DNA of 64,000 nt from Candidatus Moraniibacteriota bacterium. GTDB taxonomy: Bacteria; Patescibacteriota; Minisyncoccia; Moranbacterales; UBA1568. Positions 1,077 through 8,820 of this stretch are shown one piece after another (position 1 is the stretch's first letter; every line of letters begins with the position of its first letter). Below the pieces are notes generated by a model, which searched no databases, was not told where the DNA came from, and saw only the letters and a list, made by a program, of their open reading frames with translations. Where the stretch lies: positions 54,675 to 118,674 of the forward strand of contig JAAXXZ010000001.1 of assembly GCA_013334245.1 (NCBI GenBank), read 5' to 3'. The position numbers and the translations under genes were made by a program.

Positions 1077-2237
1077 TCACTTGAAATTCCGCAGACCGAC
1101 GAACAGATACCTGGAGTCGAACGGGTCGTACGAGACGACGGAGGCGGAACGATCCGAGTTAAGCGCGGTGACCGACCACGTCGCCCCTTCGTTCGTCGAC
1201 CGATAGAATGTCTTTCCCGCGACGAAAACGATATTCTTCGAATCCCGAGGATCGACCGCGACCGACCGGATGGGAAATTTCTCCGCGCTCTCGATGATAT
1301 TGAGCTTGGTCCAATTCTTCCCGTCGTCGGTACTCCGATATATTCCCGAATCCGACGTACCCGCATACAGGACACCCGATCGCGAAGGATCGGCGACCAG
1401 GGTCAGCATCTGACCGGGCGCATCCGTCGCGTTTGCAGCCGACTGATCGATTCCTTTTCCCTGGAGTGCACGCGCCCTCGCCTCTTCCGCCTTCACGGTC
1501 TTCCAGTCGATCCACGTGTTTCCCCCGTCGAACGAGTGGTACATGCCCTGTCCATACGTTATGAAGGATATCGAATCGTGACGTTTCGCATCGAAGGTGA
1601 TATTCGAGATGATCCCGTACTCCGTTTTGCTGCCGAGATTCTTCCACGTCGCCCCCGCGTCGAGCGACTTCAACAGCGTTCCGGCATTCGTTCCCGCATA
1701 GATGACCTCCGCGTTCCACGGATCCTGCGCAAGCGAGGAAACGAACGTTTCGTTCCCCGGTTCCGTATAGACCTCGGTCCAATTGGATCCGTTGTCATCC
1801 GTCCGGAAAATCTTTCCGCGGCCGTTCACGACGCCGGAAACGAACATCCTGTTATCGGGATCCCTCCGATCGACGATGAAGCTGTAGATGCGTTTCGGCG
1901 GAAACGGGATAGGTAGCCAGGTCTCCCCGCCGTTATCCGTCTTGAACACCCCGTCATCGACGGTGCCGAGTACGATCGACTTCGGCTTGGTAGGGTGAAA
2001 AGCGATGGACAGTATGTCCGCCTTATCGATCATCCGGTTCGCATCAACGGTCGAACGGACCTGGAACGTAAGACCGGCATCCTCGCTTTTCCACACGCTG
2101 CCCTTCTCGTTCTTCGATACGAGCCCGCCCGGAACAGGCAATTGCAACTGACCGGTCGACGATGGTTGGGTACCGACCGAGCATCCCGACAACACTACCG
2201 CCATAAGCGGCACGAGAAACTGTATCGTTTTTTTCAT
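1077..2237 (-). CDS. secreted lipoprotein with BNR/Asp-box repeats (Ycf48/sortilin-like beta-propeller)
   Basis: Internal ATG (M31 of track ORF 1077..2327) gives MKKTIQFLVPLMAVVLSGCS, a lipobox signal peptide. There are multiple S-x-D-x-G-x-T-W repeats (TDNGGETW, TDDNGSNWT, SLDAGATW, SFDGGNTW, STDDGKNWT, STNEGATW). Confidence 0.6.
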   Translation of the reverse strand: MKKTIQFLVPLMAVVLSGCSVGTQPSSTGQLQLPVPGGLVSKNEKGSVWKSEDAGLTFQVRSTVDANRMIDKADILSIAFHPTKPKSIVLGTVDDGVFKTDNGGETWLPIPFPPKRIYSFIVDRRDPDNRMFVSGVVNGRGKIFRTDDNGSNWTEVYTEPGNETFVSSLAQDPWNAEVIYAGTNAGTLLKSLDAGATWKNLGSKTEYGIISNITFDAKRHDSISFITYGQGMYHSFDGGNTWIDWKTVKAEEARARALQGKGIDQSAANATDAPGQMLTLVADPSRSGVLYAGTSDSGIYRSTDDGKNWTKLNIIESAEKFPIRSVAVDPRDSKNIVFVAGKTFYRSTNEGATWSVTALNSDRSASVVSYDPFDSRYLFVGLRNFK

Positions 2238-2357
2238 ATTTGGGAGTTTTCCCGTGGGTTCCTGTTTTTTCAGTATATCAGAAGGACCCGAAAAGCAAAG
2301 TGGCGATTGACTCCCGACTTCGTACAAGCTATACTTCCCTTGTTTCCATTTTATGCC

Positions 2358-2446
2358 GGGTCGTTAGCTCACCCGAACGAAAGGCTTTACATAGCAATAC
2401 GGGCAGGGTTGGTAAATCCGCCAACTGGCGGAATTTCAGGTTAGCC
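2358..2446 (+). repeat. degenerate tRNA-Lys-derived repeat copy A: first 14 nt of tRNA-Lys (GGGTCGTTAGCTCA), a 36 nt insert, then GTTGGTAAATCCGCCAACTGGCGGAATTTCAGGTTAGCC carrying the TCCGCC-N4-GGCGGA palindrome
   Basis: Direct sequence comparison with the intact tRNA-Lys at 2718-2790 and with copies at 2791-2888 and 3717-3785. Confidence 0.6.
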
Positions 2447-2448
2447 TG

Positions 2449-2727
2449 ATGAATATGGATTCTCTGACGAGATACTCCATATATGTAATACAAAACGAAG
2501 CCGGTAAAAGATATATCGGATATACTTCTGATTTAGAAAAGCGGCTCAAGCGGCATAATGGGGATTTACCGAACAAAACGACGTCCTATACGCGGAAGAA
2601 TCGAGGACACTGGACATTGAAATACAAAGAGGAGTACGCTAGTAGACAGGAGGCATTACGGAGGGAAAAGGAATTGAAAAGTTGCCAAGGCAGAAAGTTT
2701 ATCACAGAGATACTCTCGGGTCGTTAG
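2449..2727 (+). CDS. GIY-YIG nuclease family protein (YhbQ/UPF0213-like small GIY-YIG domain)
   Basis: The 92 aa ORF has YSIYVIQNEAGKRYIGYTSDLEKRLKRHN, the GIY...YIG...R...H core. It is AT-rich (about 38% GC) against the 57% background. Its stop codon TAG is formed by bases 8-10 of the tRNA-Lys gene. Confidence 0.8.
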   Translation: MNMDSLTRYSIYVIQNEAGKRYIGYTSDLEKRLKRHNGDLPNKTTSYTRKNRGHWTLKYKEEYASRQEALRREKELKSCQGRKFITEILSGR

Positions 2728-2790
2728 CTCAGTTGGTAGAGCAGTGGCCTTTTAAGCCAACGGTCGCTGGTTCGAATCCAGCACGACCCA
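2718..2790 (+). tRNA. tRNA-Lys (anticodon UUU)
   Basis: Cloverleaf: acceptor GGGTCGT/ACGACCC, D-arm GCTC-AGTTGGTA-GAGC, anticodon loop CTTTTAA, T-arm GCTGG-TTCGAAT-CCAGC, discriminator A. No encoded CCA. Confidence 0.85.
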
Positions 2791-2888
2791 CACCGAGAAA
2801 ACATGCTCCATATCGATCAGTTGGTAGATCCGCCGGCTGGCGGACTGTTAAGCCAACGGTCGCTGGTTCGAATCCAGCACGACCCACC
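2791..2888 (+). repeat. tRNA-Lys-derived repeat copy C: leader CACCGAGAAAACATGCTCCATATCGATCA plus degenerate tRNA-like GTTGGTAGATCCGCCGGCTGGCGGACTGTTAAGCC...TTCGAATCCAGCACGACCCACC. It lacks a 5' acceptor strand and the anticodon arm is replaced by the palindrome TCCGCCGGCTGGCGGA
   Basis: 3' portion is identical to the tRNA-Lys 3' half. There is no GGGTCGT 5' strand, so no cloverleaf can form. The leader reappears in degenerate form after this copy (CCGAGAATAGACGCTCTATATCTATCAGTTG). Confidence 0.6.
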
Positions 2889-2919
2889 CCGAGAATAGAC
2901 GCTCTATATCTATCAGTTG

Positions 2920-3716
2920 TCCGAAATCCGCATTTGCCCTAGTGCTAAAATTAACAATTCAACAATATGACAACGAATAGATGTATCATAATTCATGGAT
3001 GCCCCTCTGATTCTGAAAAAGAGATGGATCCTGAAACAAGGACCTATGACAAGCACTGGATTCCGTGGTTAAAAAGAAATCTTATTGCAAAAAATATTGA
3101 AACGGAAACTCCCCTCATGCCATCGCCCTGGCAACCTGATTATGAAAAAATCAAAGCTGAGTTTGAAAAATATACTGTTGATGAAAACACAATCTTAGTG
3201 GGTCATAGTTGCGGTTGTGCCTTCTTGGTTCGATGGCTTGGTGAAACTAAGACCAAAATTTTTAAACTTTTTTTAGTCGCGCCTTGGAAAATTCCGCAAG
3301 AGAAAAGGAATGGTGCTGATGTAAATTTCTATACATATCAGATTGACCAGTCTATCAAGGACAGGATAAGTCAAATAGTTATGTTTACTGCGGACGATGA
3401 GGAGGAAGACGGAAAAAAAAGTTTAAAAATTTTTCATGATGTACTTGGTGGCGAGATTATCGAGCTAAAAGGGCGAGGGCATTACTGTTTGGACGATATG
3501 AAAACCGAGGAGCTTCCTGAGCTATTGGAAAAGATTTTGCAATAAGATTTCGAGGCATCCATTTCTTGCTAACAAGGACGGGCAAATGCGGACACCGCAC
3601 AACACTTCATATCCGGTTCAGGAATTTTTCACATTTATGATTCAAGGTAGGGAAAATTCCTTCTCCCAAATTTTTGTTCCGCTATCGCTGCACAAAAAAT
3701 TCGGATGATGCCGAAA
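2920..3716 (+). mobile_element. putative non-autonomous cassette inserted in a tRNA-derived repeat unit. AT-rich, carries the hydrolase gene, has internal inverted repeats TCCGCATTTGCCC (2927-2939) and GGGCAAATGCGGA (3580-3592), and is flanked by GTTG on both sides (2916-2919 and 3717-3720)
   Basis: The repeat unit ...ATCAGTTG|GTAGATCCGCC... is interrupted after GTTG at 2919 and resumes with GTTGGTAGATCCGCC at 3717. GC content drops to about 38% inside. Inverted 13-nt repeats lie near both ends. Confidence 0.4.
2967..3545 (+). CDS. alpha/beta serine hydrolase of the RBBP9/YdeN family (PF06821-like)
   Basis: 192 aa with N-terminal IIIHG, LVGHSCG nucleophile elbow (GxSxG), and C-terminal GHY motif. 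It is a paralogue of the CDS at 8266..8820. AT-rich codon usage. Confidence 0.75.
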   Translation: MTTNRCIIIHGCPSDSEKEMDPETRTYDKHWIPWLKRNLIAKNIETETPLMPSPWQPDYEKIKAEFEKYTVDENTILVGHSCGCAFLVRWLGETKTKIFKLFLVAPWKIPQEKRNGADVNFYTYQIDQSIKDRISQIVMFTADDEEEDGKKSLKIFHDVLGGEIIELKGRGHYCLDDMKTEELPELLEKILQ

Positions 3717-3785
3717 CGTTGGTAGATCCGCCGGCTGGCGGACTGTTAAGCCAACGGTCGCTGGTTCGAATCCAGCACGACCCAC
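3717..3785 (+). repeat. tRNA-Lys-derived repeat copy D (GTTGGTAGATCCGCCGGCTGGCGGACTGTTAAGCC...ACGACCCACC), identical to copy C body
   Basis: 69 nt identical to 2820-2888. No 5' acceptor strand upstream. Confidence 0.6.
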
Positions 3786-3793
3786 CGAAAACG

Positions 3794-3818
3794 AAAAGCC
3801 GCCATAGGGCGGTTTTTC
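3794..3818 (+). terminator. Rho-independent terminator-like hairpin AAAAGCCGCC-ATAG-GGCGGTTTTT
   Basis: GC stem 6 bp, 4-nt loop, followed by T5. Lies directly after repeat copy D. Confidence 0.5.
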
Positions 3819-3862
3819 GCTTGTGTCGGTCGAAGGCGAAGAAACGGGCACTTGACTGACAC

Positions 3863-4324
3863 TCATTCACTTATGGTTTTCCTCATCGGTATCAATAGCA
3901 ATCGGCGTCCCTCAAGTGGCTCCTTCGCAAGGACATCGACCGGCTCGACAGAGCTCCACCCGTTCGCCCTGAAAAATTCCACTGCGTTCGGCTCCGCACT
4001 CAGCAGCGCGGTCCGCTTTCCTCGTACCCGCAAACGCGCCTCCAATTTCGAAAGAATCTGTGTGCCGAGTCCCTGCAGACGATATTCCGGCCGCACGAAC
4101 ACATGCGTAACCCAACCGTCCTTCCGTGCCCGTCCGAATCCGGCGAATCGGTCGTTTTCCCAGGCGGTCAGGAACAGATCGCCTTCCCACGTGCGTATCT
4201 CATCCTCGGCAGGATCGTCAAACGCGACTTCGGATGCCGCATCGTCCACGTGCAAAAGGTCGACGATATCTTTCGCGCTGGCCGAACCGAAACCGTCACA
4301 CATTGAAAAGTTCGATCCGTTCAT
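3863..4324 (-). CDS. GNAT family N-acetyltransferase
   Basis: The 153 aa ORF has a GNAT-like core (HVFVRPEYRLQGLGTQIL), the acetyl-CoA binding Q/RxxGxG/A motif. ATG start overlaps the stop of the upstream gene (ATGA). Confidence 0.7.
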   Translation of the reverse strand: MNGSNFSMCDGFGSASAKDIVDLLHVDDAASEVAFDDPAEDEIRTWEGDLFLTAWENDRFAGFGRARKDGWVTHVFVRPEYRLQGLGTQILSKLEARLRVRGKRTALLSAEPNAVEFFRANGWSSVEPVDVLAKEPLEGRRLLLIPMRKTISE

Positions 4325-5313
4325 GCGATTTCTGTCTTATTGTCCGGACGCAACATCCTTGCCAGTGAACTCTTCGCTTCGAATATCCTCTTCGTCGCCT
4401 CGTATTTGGCCGCGTATTCGATATTGATCTTTATCCCGAACGCCCCGTTTTTTATATCACCGTCGAACATTTTCTTTCCCAGCTGCTGCCCCCACTTGCT
4501 GTTTCCATGCGCTACACATATTTCTTTCCGAATCTCTTCCGCCCGCCCACTCATATACGCTAAGAAGCCTGCCATAGTCGGCGCGGCGCCACTTCCCTCT
4601 TTTTCGATGCTTATCAGATATTTTCGGAAAAAGGTCGCATTATACCTGAGGACTCCGAATTTCTCCACGTCATCAGATTCGGAATATTCGCTCACTTCCT
4701 TGATGATCTCGGCGAACAGTTTCGCCGCACCCTTGGCAGATCCACCGATAGTCTTGGGATTGACATTGAACCGTCCCGCCGCCCACGGAGTCAGCTGAAA
4801 AGGCCCGCCCTTCCCCCACGTCTCGTTGTTCCAGAAAGACTCATACATGGATACCAACGCGAATGTCCTCGGAACGCTTTCCTTATCGAACTCATGCGAT
4901 ACGGTGCTCCAGTTTTGTCGGAGGCCGTCAATAGCGGAATCGAAATCGCCCGCGAAATCACCCTCCGTATACTGCCAAACCCAATAATCGACCATTTTTT
5001 CAAACTCTTCCATTCCGATCTCTTTCACGCCTTTCTCATAAGAGAACATCTCGTCCATGGGGTTTTCATGAACGTTTTCGGATTCAACGGATTCCGGTTC
5101 CTCCTGAGCTTTTCCGCGACCTTCGACGACCTCTTGTTCCTTTTTTCCATCGACCAGCAATTCATGGAGCGCACCTGCCCCTACCGCGGTCCCGGCCAGC
5201 ACTATTCCCGCATCCCGAAGAAACTTTCTTCTGCCTGGATCCGCCTCCGCGGGACGTCCCGCCTTTCTATCCGCAGCGCCTCCGACCGTTGGTTTTTCGA
5301 ATCCGAACGCCAT
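4321..5313 (-). CDS. hypothetical secreted protein with twin-arginine (Tat) signal peptide
   Basis: Internal ATG (M11 of track ORF, whose own start is TTG). RRKFLRDAGIVLAGTAVGAGA matches the Tat motif S/T-RRxFL followed by a hydrophobic stretch. The rest has no domain I can name. Confidence 0.5.
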   Translation of the reverse strand: MAFGFEKPTVGGAADRKAGRPAEADPGRRKFLRDAGIVLAGTAVGAGALHELLVDGKKEQEVVEGRGKAQEEPESVESENVHENPMDEMFSYEKGVKEIGMEEFEKMVDYWVWQYTEGDFAGDFDSAIDGLRQNWSTVSHEFDKESVPRTFALVSMYESFWNNETWGKGGPFQLTPWAAGRFNVNPKTIGGSAKGAAKLFAEIIKEVSEYSESDDVEKFGVLRYNATFFRKYLISIEKEGSGAAPTMAGFLAYMSGRAEEIRKEICVAHGNSKWGQQLGKKMFDGDIKNGAFGIKINIEYAAKYEATKRIFEAKSSLARMLRPDNKTEIA

Positions 5314-5405
5314 ATCCGTATCTGAATCAGTACGTATCAACAATATTGTACACCAAAAGGAAAACTGGAACGACCGGCCCTCGTATAGTATACTGCATTC
5401 ACTCC

Positions 5406-8100: not shown

Positions 8101-8113
8101 TTTAATGACGTTG

Positions 8114-8187
8114 TGGTCGCTGGTGGACTCGAACCACCGACCCCTGCAATGTGAATGCAGTGCTCTAACCAACTGAGCTAAGCGACC
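8114..8187 (-). tRNA. tRNA-Val (anticodon CAC)
   Basis: Reverse complement GGTCGCTTAGCTCAGTTGGTTAGAGCACTGCATTCACATTGCAGGGGTCGGTGGTTCGAGTCCACCAGCGACCA. Acceptor GGTCGCT/AGCGACC, anticodon stem CTGCA/TGCAG, loop TTCACAT. Confidence 0.85.
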
Positions 8188-8265: not shown

Positions 8266-8820
8266 TCACCCCATCATTTCTTTCAAAGCATCCAGGCATG
8301 GCGGCAGTTCGAACCATCCCGCCGAAGTGTTGAGATGCTTACCGCCCTGAACGACGGTTAATTCGGCGGATAGTTCCGAGGACAGGCGTTCCGCGTCTTT
8401 CATGGGCACATAGGGATCGTCATCTCCCTGAATGACGGCGAAGCGACCGCATTTTGAAGAGATGGTCGAAAAATCGAATCCGTCTTCCAAAAAATTATCT
8501 ATCGTTCTATTGTCATTCTTGGATATCGGCCCGGCAACGAGTACGGCCCCTTGGATGGGATGCACATTGTCATTCTCCAGGTACCGCAATATCGCCGTTG
8601 CACCCAAGGAATGACCTACGAGGTACACCTCGTCGCCGACAGACCATTCTACGGCTCTTTCTATCTCGCCGACCCACTCAGAACACAGCGGCCACTCCGG
8701 ATCCGGCATGGGCAGCGCACAGGCATAGATATCCTTCTTCTCGAGTTCCGCCATGAGCCACGGCCGCCACCCGCCGTTCGGCGTCCCCTGAAAGCCATGG
8801 ATGATAAAGACCTTTTTCAT
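8266..8820 (-). CDS. alpha/beta serine hydrolase of the RBBP9/YdeN family (second paralogue)
   Basis: MKKVFIIHGFQG..., LVGHSLGA (GxSxG), PF06821-like length of 184 aa. Its start overlaps the idi stop. Confidence 0.7.
   Translation of the reverse strand: MKKVFIIHGFQGTPNGGWRPWLMAELEKKDIYACALPMPDPEWPLCSEWVGEIERAVEWSVGDEVYLVGHSLGATAILRYLENDNVHPIQGAVLVAGPISKNDNRTIDNFLEDGFDFSTISSKCGRFAVIQGDDDPYVPMKDAERLSSELSAELTVVQGGKHLNTSAGWFELPPCLDALKEMMG

What the first reader, a model, noticed from the sequence alone, without database searches (positions are those of the whole stretch)
2889..3720. Mini-cassette of about 800 bp carrying an RBBP9/YdeN-type hydrolase, with internal inverted repeats and possible 4-bp target duplication (GTTG)
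The tRNA-derived repeat unit is cut after ...ATCAGTTG (2916-2919) and resumes with GTTGGTAGATCCGCC at 3717. The intervening AT-rich DNA carries one gene, a YdeN-like serine hydrolase. It has 13-nt inverted repeats TCCGCATTTGCCC (2927-2939) and GGGCAAATGCGGA (3580-3592) near its ends, and a terminator-like hairpin just outside (3794-3818). A second, GC-normal paralogue of the same hydrolase family is at 8266-8820. This resembles a passenger-only cassette such as a MITE with cargo or an integron-like cassette that has inserted into a pre-existing repeat.
Basis: seen in the sequence. Interest (0 to 1): 0.55.

Follow-up and report, generated by a model that had tools for sequence, protein, structure and literature searches.

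The report
Stray integron-type gene cassette in pseudo-tRNA
The 800-bp AT-rich insert is a single integron-style gene cassette, a serine hydrolase gene plus its folded recombination site, that was spliced into a dead copy of a tRNA-Lys gene in a Moranbacteria (candidate phyla radiation) genome. The same cassette circulates in cassette arrays of other ultra-small bacteria and archaea.

Summary
A pseudo-tRNA-Lys unit downstream of tRNA-Lys is interrupted between TCAG (ending at 2916) and TTGGTAGA (starting at 3719) by 802 bp of 39% GC DNA in a 55% GC genome. The insert carries one PF06821 (YdeN/RBBP9) hydrolase gene.

The insert is an integron-type gene cassette, not a MITE. Its 3' end (3597-3724) is an attC-like site with R'', L'', L' and R' boxes. 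A covariance model built only from attC sites of other loci hits the window once (72.8 bits) and nowhere else in 64 kb. The same cassette, with the same limits, sits in same-strand cassette arrays in Uhrbacteria, Falkowbacteria, Moranbacteria and Nanoarchaeota/Pacearchaeota contigs. Two of these arrays lie beside a divergent tyrosine recombinase.

"GTTG" is not a target duplication. It is the G|TT crossover core shared by the target and the cassette's R' box.

The 13-nt inverted repeat is a conserved feature of this cassette and shows compensatory changes, but it is not terminal.

The window copy is an isolated and probably immobilised cassette: its attC has decayed and no recombinase lies nearby. 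It is positioned for read-through expression from the tRNA promoter.

The associated recombinases are XerA-like and lack the IntI-specific domain, so this is a variant of the integron theme.

The parts
2307..2335 (+). Sigma-70-like promoter match (TTGACT-17-TATACT) upstream of the tRNA-Lys unit. It is the likely source of read-through transcription into the cassette.
   Evidence: 10 of 12 matches. This is a consensus match only; function is inferred.
2358..2440 (+). Upstream pseudo-tRNA-Lys: tRNA positions 1-14 (2358-2371), a 36-nt filler (2372-2407), then D-loop GTTGGTAAA plus the 16-nt palindrome TCCGCCAACTGGCGGA (2417-2432).
   Evidence: (15-nt direct repeat CGGGTCGTTAGCTCA at 2357 and 2717).
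2449..2727 (+). 92-aa GIY-YIG nuclease gene containing only the catalytic domain. Its stop codon TAG is tRNA-Lys positions 8-10. It is context for the cassette, not part of it.
   Evidence: (PF01541, E = 5.5e-16).
2718..2791 (+). Intact tRNA-Lys(UUU).
   Evidence: Rfam tRNA, 73.9 bits.
2792..2888 (+). Uninterrupted pseudo-tRNA-Lys unit: spacer, TCAGTTGGTAGA, palindrome, tRNA 3' half. It serves as a paralogous 'empty site' for the cassette target. It is absent from the close relative L043.
2889..2916 (+). Left part of the interrupted target pseudo-tRNA: spacer plus TCAG, ending at the G of the crossover G|TT.
   Evidence: Compared with 2792-2819 and with L124.
2917..3718 (+). The integron-type gene cassette (802 nt), running from the TT of its own R' remnant to the G of its attC R'.
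   Evidence: the same limits are seen in at least 4 other genomic contexts.
2916..2939 (+). Left arm of the cassette-specific inverted repeat. The exact 13-nt core is 2927-2939, which starts 40 nt before the ATG.
2967..3545 (+). 192-aa YdeN/RBBP9-family serine hydrolase with G79-H-S81-C-G83, D143/D144 and H172. GC content is 38%.
3580..3603 (+). Right arm of the inverted repeat (core 3580-3592). Its last 7 nt are the attC R'' box.
3597..3724 (+). attC-type recombination site: R'' GCACAAC (3597-3603), L'' (3605-3616, two mismatches at 3606-3607), two internal hairpins, L' (3701-3713, with an extra G at 3707), and R' (3718-3724), which is now chimeric (G from the cassette, TTGGTA from the target).
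   Evidence: (72.8 bits, E about 1e-17, the only hit in 64 kb).
3719..3786 (+). Right part of the interrupted target pseudo-tRNA: TTGGTAGA, the palindrome TCCGCCGGCTGGCGGA (3727-3742), and the tRNA-Lys 3' half.
3794..3818 (+). GC hairpin plus T-run (AAAAGCCGCCATAGGGCGGTTTTTCGC). It is the terminator of the tRNA-Lys unit and lies downstream of the cassette.
   Evidence: read directly. One search lists the same hairpin on the minus strand. The homologous hairpin follows the pseudo-tRNA in L020, L043 and L124.

Best explanation
Window 2917-3718 is one integron-type gene cassette: a promoterless hydrolase gene followed by an attC-like folded recombination site.

Inferred steps:
- The cassette was excised as a circle from a cassette array in a low-GC Patescibacteria or DPANN donor.
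- A tyrosine recombinase acting in trans inserted it at a GTT triplet (G|TT) in the D-loop of a non-functional pseudo-tRNA-Lys, between the real tRNA-Lys and its terminator. This is an off-platform ('attG-type') insertion that produces an isolated cassette (SALIN).
- The insertion happened before the window organism and L043 diverged.
- The cassette points the same way as the tRNA, so it can be transcribed by read-through from the tRNA promoter and stopped by the tRNA terminator.

Shown: the attC has since decayed (two L'' substitutions and a chimeric R'), and no recombinase lies within 64 kb. The cassette is therefore probably fixed in place, while the gene is still under purifying selection.
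For: 1. attC identity. A covariance model trained on 13 attC-like sites from other loci (the window was excluded, though attCs of closely related copies of this same hydrolase cassette were among the 13) finds exactly one site in the window, 3597-3724, at 72.8 bits. Nothing else scores up to E = 10.
2. Arrays. The same model finds 54 sites in the hydrolase-bearing metagenome loci. All are on the strand of the genes, and they form arrays of 3-5 per 3-5 kb. It also finds 10 sites in a row in a Falkowbacteria contig.
3. Structure rather than sequence is conserved. The L-box helix is 97% paired, and 9 of its 12 pairs change on both sides. No shuffle out of 500 reached the observed values on any of the five whole-structure measures, and partners slid by 1-3 columns drop to 32-42% paired.
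4. Circle logic. The R'' of a cassette complements the 7 nt at its own 5' boundary (7/7 in 8 of 10 correctly paired cases) better than the R' at its 3' junction. In the window the figures are 6/7 against 4/7.
5. Same limits in different contexts. Flanks diverge exactly at ...AC|GTT on both sides in L044, L047, L048, L052, L053 and the window.
6. Platform. A divergent tyrosine recombinase lies 89-165 nt upstream of the first cassette in L062 (labelled Nanoarchaeota) and in L131/L133 (Falkowbacteria).
7. Empty sites. Window 2792-2888, L124 and L020 show the target continuous across the insertion point.
8. Foreign origin. The cassette is 39% GC against 55% for the window. Its closest relatives (89-93% aa) sit in 32-38% GC contigs, and identical or near-identical proteins are labelled Uhrbacteria, Falkowbacteria and Moraniibacteriota.
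9. Known precedent. Off-platform insertion at 5'-GWT-3' giving SALINs is documented (bioRxiv 10.1101/2022.09.11.507474).
10. Decay. The array copy of the attC (L047) folds as a closed R/L stem (-25.6 kcal/mol, z = -5.6). The window copy does not (-16.5 kcal/mol, z = -2.05).
11. Gene still constrained. Against L047 there are 29 synonymous and 17 non-synonymous codon differences; against L043 there are 7 and 5.
Against: - No recombinase is present in the window, so the enzyme that made the insertion is unknown.
- The recombinases found beside related arrays lack the IntI-specific domain: about 42 residues are missing relative to VchIntIA, and TIGR02249 scores 194 against a cut-off of 265. No activity on folded attC sites is shown for them.
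- Most of these attCs lack the extrahelical bases typical of classical attCs.
- Expression by read-through is inferred from geometry only.
- The covariance model's E-values are rough, and its training set included attCs of close relatives of this cassette.
Confidence: 0.85

Rival explanations
1. MITE-like or IS-derived transposon with cargo. The 13-24-nt inverted repeats are transposase binding sites, and GTTG is a 4-bp target-site duplication made by staggered cleavage.
For: An inverted repeat flanks the ORF, and GTTG is present at both junctions.
Against: - The right repeat arm is 126 nt inside the right boundary, and the left arm core starts 11 nt inside the left boundary.
- In groups 2 and 3 of the cassette family, about 60 nt separate the right arm from the attC.
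- In other contexts the junction heptamers differ (GTTATGT, GTTGTAC, GTTAGCT and others) and follow the R''/own-5'-end rule rather than a duplication rule.
- No transposase is associated with any copy.
Confidence: 0.03
2. Remnant of a larger tRNA-targeting integrative island. The 69-nt direct repeats (tRNA 3' half) would be attL/attR of an element that integrated into tRNA-Lys and later lost everything but the hydrolase.
For: There are identical 69-nt direct repeats at 2820-2888 and 3718-3786, and tRNA 3' ends are classical integration sites.
Against: - The same pseudo-tRNA repeats exist without any hydrolase in L124, L020 and about 30 other Patescibacteria loci, where they accompany a GIY-YIG gene.
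- The foreign DNA ends inside the D-loop of one unit, not at the repeat borders.
- The foreign DNA is exactly one cassette, as delimited in arrays elsewhere.
Confidence: 0.05
3. The hydrolase was carried in by the neighbouring GIY-YIG homing-type element through co-conversion during double-strand-break repair.
For: The locus is a hot spot of GIY-YIG-associated rearrangement. The window differs from L043 by the presence of the GIY-YIG ORF and an extra 96-nt unit.
Against: - L043 has the cassette but no GIY-YIG ORF. L124 has the GIY-YIG (89% identical) but no cassette.
- None of the 35 genome loci found through the palindrome motif (L009-L043) other than L043, which is the window's own close relative, contains the hydrolase.
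- The cassette limits are attC-defined.
Confidence: 0.04
4. Metagenome mis-assembly joined a low-GC fragment into a repeat-rich tRNA region.
For: There is a sharp GC drop and repeats at both sides.
Against: The same structure is seen in two further assemblies. L001 is 99.9% identical. L043 is an independent bin whose flanks are 94-96% identical, whose ORF differs at 12 of 579 nt, and whose junctions are identical.
Confidence: 0.02

Closest known systems
Isolated integron cassettes (SALIN) inserted at genomic attG sites (Loot et al., bioRxiv 10.1101/2022.09.11.507474)
   Same: - One ORF plus one attC, with no integrase and no other attC nearby.
- Insertion at a 5'-GWT-3' triplet (here GTT) with crossover after the G.
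- Orientation that allows expression from a host promoter.
   Different: - The host is a Patescibacterium, and the target is a pseudo-tRNA D-loop inside a tRNA transcription unit.
- The recombinase family associated with this cassette pool is XerA-like and lacks the IntI domain.
- The attC has decayed after insertion.
Sedentary chromosomal integrons and CALINs (IntegronFinder definition; Cury 2016, Neron 2022 PMC9024848)
   Same: - Related loci show same-strand arrays of short ORFs separated by attC sites with R''-L''...L'-R' architecture.
- R' is GTTRRRY-like, and attCs are similar within a lineage.
- A divergent recombinase plus an attI-like gap lies at one end (L131/L133, L062).
   Different: - The recombinase passes NF040815 (XerA_Arch, 234 against a cut-off of 220) but not TIGR02249 (194 against 265), and it lacks about 42 residues at the IntI-specific domain.
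- The attCs share conserved internal modules (GGTTC, CCCAAAT).
- Extrahelical L-box bases are mostly absent.
Archaeal integrons (Ghaly et al. 2022, PMC9668308)
   Same: - Cassette arrays occur in DPANN (Nanoarchaeota) genomes.
- A cassette pool is shared between Archaea and Bacteria. Here one hydrolase cassette family occurs in contigs labelled Nanoarchaeota/Pacearchaeota and in Patescibacteria.
   Different: - That study defined IntIs by the IntI-specific domain and found only 6 IntIs for 75 genomes with arrays.
- The recombinases seen here would fail that definition.
- Patescibacteria are not mentioned in that paper.
B. subtilis YdeN / human RBBP9 serine hydrolases (PF06821; PDB 1UXO)
   Same: Alpha/beta hydrolase of about 190 aa with a GHSxG nucleophile elbow and conserved Asp and His.
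   Different: - The substrate is unknown.
- This clade is unusually conserved: the best 120 of 1,857 matching protein clusters are all 70-87% identical.
- The gene exists both as a mobile cassette and as a fixed gene, often fused or adjacent to NUDIX.

Membership tests
Integron gene cassette (attC-bounded) | An attC site 3' of the ORF with the R''(RYYYAAC)-L''...L'-R'(GTTRRRY) imperfect palindrome, conserved in structure rather than in sequence. | tested here: met
   - Window 3597-3724 has R'' GCACAAC and R' GTTGGTA (chimeric).
- Covariance model hit of 72.8 bits, the only hit in 64 kb.
- The L helix is 97% paired, with 9 of 12 pairs changed on both sides; no shuffle out of 500 reached the observed whole-structure values.
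- IntegronFinder's own attC model could not be run.
Integron gene cassette (attC-bounded) | The cassette is a discrete mobile unit: the same ORF plus attC, with identical limits, is found in different arrays or contexts. | tested here: met
   The limits coincide at AC|GTT in L044, L047, L048, L052, L053, L131 and the window, each with different neighbours.
Integron gene cassette (attC-bounded) | Crossover between G and TT, so that R'' matches the cassette's own 5' end (circular intermediate). | tested here: met
   8 of 10 adjacent-cassette comparisons give 7/7 with the cassette's own 5' boundary, against a mean of 4.9 with the 3' junction. The window gives 6/7 against 4/7.
Integron gene cassette (attC-bounded) | Extrahelical bases in the folded bottom strand that direct strand choice. 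| tested here: inconclusive
   - A single bulged G is present in L' of the hydrolase attC (window 3707; also L047, L048, L053), but it is absent from most other attCs of the arrays.
- The R-L spacers are asymmetric (1 nt against 4 nt).
- The functional role cannot be tested here.
Integron (platform) | An IntI tyrosine recombinase with the IntI-specific additional domain, adjacent and divergent to attI and the array. | tested here: not met
   - Window: there is no tyrosine recombinase at all.
- Relatives L131/L133 and L062: a divergent recombinase is present, but TIGR02249 scores 186-194 against a cut-off of 265, and it matches in two stretches.
- The alignment to VchIntIA (2A3V) leaves 64 IntI residues opposite 22 query residues.
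- The best family is XerA_Arch NF040815.
SALIN / attG insertion | A single attC with no integrase or further attC nearby, inserted at a GWT triplet outside attI/attC. | tested here: met
   - One attC and no recombinase in 64 kb.
- The junctions are TCAG|TTGTCC and GAAACG|TTGGTA.
- The target is continuous in window 2792-2888, L124 and L020.
- The target itself is not an attC (no covariance model hit).
MITE / non-autonomous DNA transposon | Terminal inverted repeats at the very ends, plus a target-site duplication of fixed length and variable sequence. | tested here: not met
   The repeat arms are internal (11 nt and 126 nt from the ends), and the junction heptamers in other copies follow attC rules.
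PF06821 Ser_hydrolase (YdeN/RBBP9) | A profile match above the gathering score, and a Ser-Asp-His triad with a GxSxG elbow. | tested here: met
   - 46.7 bits against a cut-off of 22.
- GHSCG at residues 79-83, D143/D144 and H172 align with the paralogue's GHSLG, DDD and H.
- PDB 1UXO matches at E = 2.7e-11.
- Enzyme activity was not tested.

The most novel reading that the evidence does not exclude
The cassette is a stray from a cassette-exchange system that is widespread in Patescibacteria and DPANN archaea. In this reading the system is laid out like an integron (divergent recombinase, attI-like gap, same-strand attC arrays), but it is run by XerA-type recombinases that lack the IntI-specific domain. 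It would therefore be invisible to IntI-based surveys. This could explain why most archaeal arrays were reported without an integrase, and the system would act as a vehicle for gene flow between ultra-small bacteria and archaea.
Probability: 0.45. Interest if true: 0.75.

Novelty: new variant of a known kind. Interest (0 to 1): 0.55.

Why it matters
- It gives a concrete, dated example of how a candidate-phyla-radiation (CPR) genome acquired a foreign gene. One integron-type cassette was captured off-platform inside a tRNA transcription unit and then became fixed there.
- Integron-type cassette arrays with an adjacent recombinase occur in Patescibacteria (Falkowbacteria; proteins labelled Uhrbacteria, Moraniibacteriota). 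I found no report of this in the searchable literature.
- The same hydrolase cassette family occurs in contigs labelled as DPANN archaea.
- The recombinase beside these arrays lacks the domain that defines IntI. If these recombinases do act on the attC sites, the current definition and survey tools for integrons under-count them in the two most gene-poor, symbiosis-dependent branches of life. That would make inter-domain cassette traffic directly testable.

Tried and rejected
- Rfam scan of 2000-4200 at permissive threshold: only the tRNA is significant.
- BLASTN of the whole region against the first homologue loci: similarity seemed confined to the ORF. This was misleading, because the short flanks escaped BLAST. 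Reading the flanks directly revealed the conserved repeat and tail.
- A hand-written R/L-box scanner was too permissive: 12 hits in the window against about 7.5 in Markov-simulated windows. I dropped it in favour of the covariance model.
- MAFFT mis-aligned the two shortest attCs, so I removed them.
- Pseudo-tRNA plus palindrome as an attC mimic: rejected. GTTGG...CCAAC has the opposite box order (GTT at the 5' end, AAC at the 3' end), and the model does not hit it.
- IS200/IS605-like or group I intron readings of the hairpins: no supporting protein or RNA family match.
- Literature searches for the GIY-YIG/tRNA-Lys arrangement and for integrons in CPR found nothing specific.
- Exact look-up of the window's 92-aa GIY-YIG product found no record, because annotators call a 90-aa version.
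Full report
**What is in the sequence**

The region 2300-3830 is one plus-strand tRNA-Lys transcription unit that has been repeatedly remodelled. In order it contains:
- a promoter-like site at 2307-2335;
- a pseudo-tRNA 5' half (2358-2440);
- a 92-aa GIY-YIG gene (2449-2727) whose stop codon lies inside the tRNA;
- the intact tRNA-Lys(UUU) (2718-2791);
- an uninterrupted pseudo-tRNA unit (2792-2888);
- a second pseudo-tRNA unit split into 2889-2916 and 3719-3786;
- a hairpin plus T-run (3794-3818).

The pseudo-tRNA units share the D-loop GTTGGTAGA and a 16-nt palindrome, TCCGCC-NNNN-GGCGGA, that replaces tRNA positions about 24-31. The downstream units also carry the tRNA 3' half. The two downstream units are 69-nt, 100% identical repeats.

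Between the two halves of the split unit lie 802 bp of 39% GC DNA in a 55% GC window. This DNA has a single ORF, a PF06821 YdeN/RBBP9-type serine hydrolase.

The structure is not an assembly artefact. L043, an independent Moranbacteria bin whose flanks are 94-96% identical, has the same insert with the same junctions.

**What the insert is**

The hydrolase has more than 1,800 homologues. The best 120 are 70-87% identical and come from many Patescibacteria and from Pacearchaeota. They sit in varied contexts: after parB, next to or fused with NUDIX, or next to ROK.

BLASTN suggested that only the ORF was shared. Reading the flanks showed otherwise. The Pacearchaeota loci carry an inverted repeat at the same two positions, with compensatory differences, and a similar 3' tail.

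A metagenome scan then returned 80 loci. In the closest ones (89-93% aa; 32-38% GC), both non-coding flanks of the window insert are conserved, and the DNA upstream of each copy looks like the tail of another unit. The junction signature ...TTCRSAT(N6-8)AC|GTTRNNNGAAAT recurs every 0.5-1.1 kb on the same strand. That pattern is a cassette array.

**The tail is an attC-type site**

Each tail folds as R''(NNNNAAC)-A-L''(12 nt) ... L'(12-13 nt)-NNAC-R'(GTTRNNN). I aligned 13 distinct tails from other loci and counted base pairs.
- The L helix is 97% paired, and 9 of its 12 pairs change on both sides.
- No shuffle out of 500 reached the observed values on any of the five whole-structure measures.
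- Partners slid by 1-3 columns fall to 32-42% paired.
- The R helix is only 78% paired. This is expected if the R' seen in an array is chimeric.

Consistent with that, the R'' of a cassette complements the heptamer at that cassette's own 5' boundary (7/7 in 8 of 10 correctly paired cases). It matches the heptamer at its 3' junction less well (mean 4.9). This is the signature of a circular cassette recombined between G and TT.

A covariance model built from these 13 sites gives:
- one hit in the whole 64-kb window, 3597-3724, at 72.8 bits and E about 1e-17, with nothing else up to E = 10;
- 54 hits, all same-strand, in the hydrolase loci;
- ten consecutive sites in a Falkowbacteria contig.

**The platform**

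In L131/L133 (Falkowbacteria MAGs), a 286-aa tyrosine recombinase lies on the opposite strand just upstream of about 10 cassettes. The hydrolase is one of them. In L062 (the identical protein is labelled Nanoarchaeota), a recombinase ORF that is interrupted by a stop or frameshift lies 89 nt upstream of a hydrolase cassette. The two recombinases are 36% identical over their full length.

They match NF040815, 'XerA_Arch site-specific recombinase/integron integrase'. The Falkowbacteria protein scores 234 against a cut-off of 220, and the L062 protein scores 206. Both fail the integron-integrase model TIGR02249 (186-194 against 265), which they match in two stretches.

Against V. cholerae IntI4 (2A3V), 22 query residues face 64 IntI residues exactly where the IntI-specific domain lies. 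Ghaly et al. (PMC9668308) and IntegronFinder define IntI by that domain. The layout and the sites therefore behave like an integron, but the defining recombinase feature is not met.

**How the window copy arose (inferred) and its present state**

The left junction is TCAG|TTGTCC and the right junction is GAAACG|TTGGTA. The uninterrupted target reads TCAGTTGGTAGATCCGCC in the window's own unit 2792-2888. It is continuous in L124 (there TCAGCTGG) and in L020. This fits a single crossover at G|TT between the cassette's R' (GTTGTCC, 6/7 complementary to R'') and a GTT in the pseudo-tRNA D-loop.

That is the off-platform 'attG' route, which yields isolated cassettes (SALINs) at a GWT consensus (bioRxiv 10.1101/2022.09.11.507474). 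The 'GTTG duplication' is thus the shared crossover core plus one coincidental G. It is not a target-site duplication.

No tyrosine recombinase is encoded in the window.

The window's attC carries two substitutions in L'' (TT for GG at 3606-3607, shared with L043) and a chimeric R'. As single-stranded DNA it no longer closes its R/L stem (-16.5 kcal/mol, z = -2.05). The array copy in L047 does close it (-25.6 kcal/mol, z = -5.6). The cassette is probably immobilised.

The ORF is intact, with its catalytic motifs. Synonymous changes outnumber non-synonymous ones: 29 to 17 codons against L047, and 7 to 5 against L043.

The cassette lies between the tRNA and its terminator in the same orientation. 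Expression by read-through is therefore plausible, but it is not shown.

**The inverted repeat**

The 13-nt arms are specific to the hydrolase cassette. Other cassettes in the same arrays lack them. The arms are conserved in three sequence variants:
- TCCGCATTTGCCC / GGGCAAATGCGGA (13/13 paired);
- TCCGTTTTTGCCC / GGGCAAAAACGGA (13/13 paired; two positions changed on both sides relative to the first variant);
- TCCGCCTCCGCCC / GGGCTACGGCGGA (10/13 paired).

In the window-type variant the right arm abuts R''. In the circular cassette the arms would then extend the attC stem beyond a 4x4 internal loop. In the other variants about 60 nt intervene, so a role in pairing the 5' and 3' untranslated regions of the mRNA is equally possible. 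The function is unknown. The pairing is under selection, and the repeat is not a transposon end.

**Rivals**

The MITE, decayed tRNA island, GIY-YIG co-conversion and mis-assembly readings are each contradicted by specific comparisons. These are the internal position of the repeat arms, pseudo-tRNA repeats that exist without the hydrolase, the independent presence and absence of GIY-YIG and cassette in L043 and L124, and independent assemblies.

**Novelty and verdict**

The mechanism class (integron cassette, SALIN, attG) is known. What departs from it:
- the host group is Patescibacteria, for which I found no integron report in the searchable library;
- the associated recombinase is XerA-like and lacks the IntI domain;
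- the attC family has conserved internal modules and few extrahelical bases;
- the target is a pseudo-tRNA inside a tRNA operon;
- the same cassette family occurs in contigs labelled as DPANN archaea.

I rate it a new variant of a known kind, of moderate interest.

Noticed in passing
window 2357-2888 and 3718-3786; loci L009-L043, L124-L130: A catalytic-domain-only GIY-YIG gene (83-95 aa) is nested at tRNA-Lys genes across many Patescibacteria.

- Constant architecture on one strand: the local tRNA 5' part up to the D-loop; a conserved 16-nt palindrome TCCGCC-NNNN-GGCGGA replacing tRNA positions about 24-31; the anticodon loop; the ORF, whose stop is often the tRNA's own U8-A9-G10; then the intact tRNA-Lys.
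- Extra or tandem palindrome-bearing pseudo-tRNAs often follow (L038, L126, L016).
- 30 of 36 motif loci have the palindrome within 400 nt upstream of tRNA-Lys.
- Three contexts reached through GIY-YIG homologues, and so unbiased with respect to the motif, all show tRNA-Lys plus the palindrome.
- In L030 the palindrome and a Lys-type anticodon loop sit in front of a tRNA-Val.
- The close relative L043 lacks the ORF.

This looks like a free-standing homing-type element that inserts in the D-loop and restores the tRNA 5' end. I found no description in the literature I could search. It may be more novel than the cassette itself.
   Followed up: partly
L131 2673-3533 (-), L133 2862-3674 (-), L062 1533-2342 (-): The recombinases placed like intI beside attC arrays, in Falkowbacteria and in a contig labelled Nanoarchaeota, are XerA-like. 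They lack about 42 residues at the IntI-specific domain and would be missed by IntegronFinder's IntI criterion.
   Followed up: partly
window 2372-2407; L030, L026, L019, L031, L015, L017 at the equivalent place: Short fillers of 20-36 nt, often hairpin-forming and ending in GGCAGG(N)CA, are inserted exactly between GCTC(A) and GTTGGTA of the upstream pseudo-tRNAs. That position is the presumed GIY-YIG element junction. Their origin is unknown.
   Followed up: no
L131 4877-, 8906-, 9755-, 10777-, 11666- (and L051 after the hydrolase attC): Five attC sites end in GAT instead of GTT. Each is followed by the same sequence, GATAGGCTAAATTCACTCGCTAACGCT. This may be a repeated small non-coding cassette or an attC-targeting element.
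   Followed up: no
hydrolase homologues P0057, P0073, P0090 etc.; loci L003, L063, L067, L069: The same hydrolase clade also exists as a fixed gene adjacent to or fused with a NUDIX domain (proteins of about 326 aa). The clade is unusually conserved: the best 120 of 1,857 matching protein clusters are all 70-87% identical, and they come from many Patescibacteria lineages and Pacearchaeota. This suggests frequent horizontal spread.
   Followed up: partly
window 8113-8187 (-) and 8266-8820 (-): The GC-normal PF06821 paralogue (24% identical to the cassette copy) also lies directly next to a tRNA gene (tRNA-Val, 78 nt away). It has no attC hit and no palindrome, so this is probably coincidence.
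   Followed up: partly
L020 (minus strand) about 560-1100; L124 2030-2250: In related Moranbacteria the tRNA-Lys 3' end plus terminator is duplicated around a conserved non-coding segment of about 140 nt (TGAGCGAGTGAA...GGCGAGGGAG). This segment is absent from the window. The GNAT gene and the 340-aa gene at window 3863-5343 are absent from L124.
   Followed up: no
loci L011, L018, L026, L028, L029, L035: Six contigs that carry the Patescibacteria-type pseudo-tRNA-Lys/palindrome motif are labelled 'uncultured Gammaproteobacteria/Pseudomonadales' in their records. This may be mis-binning or mislabelling.
   Followed up: no
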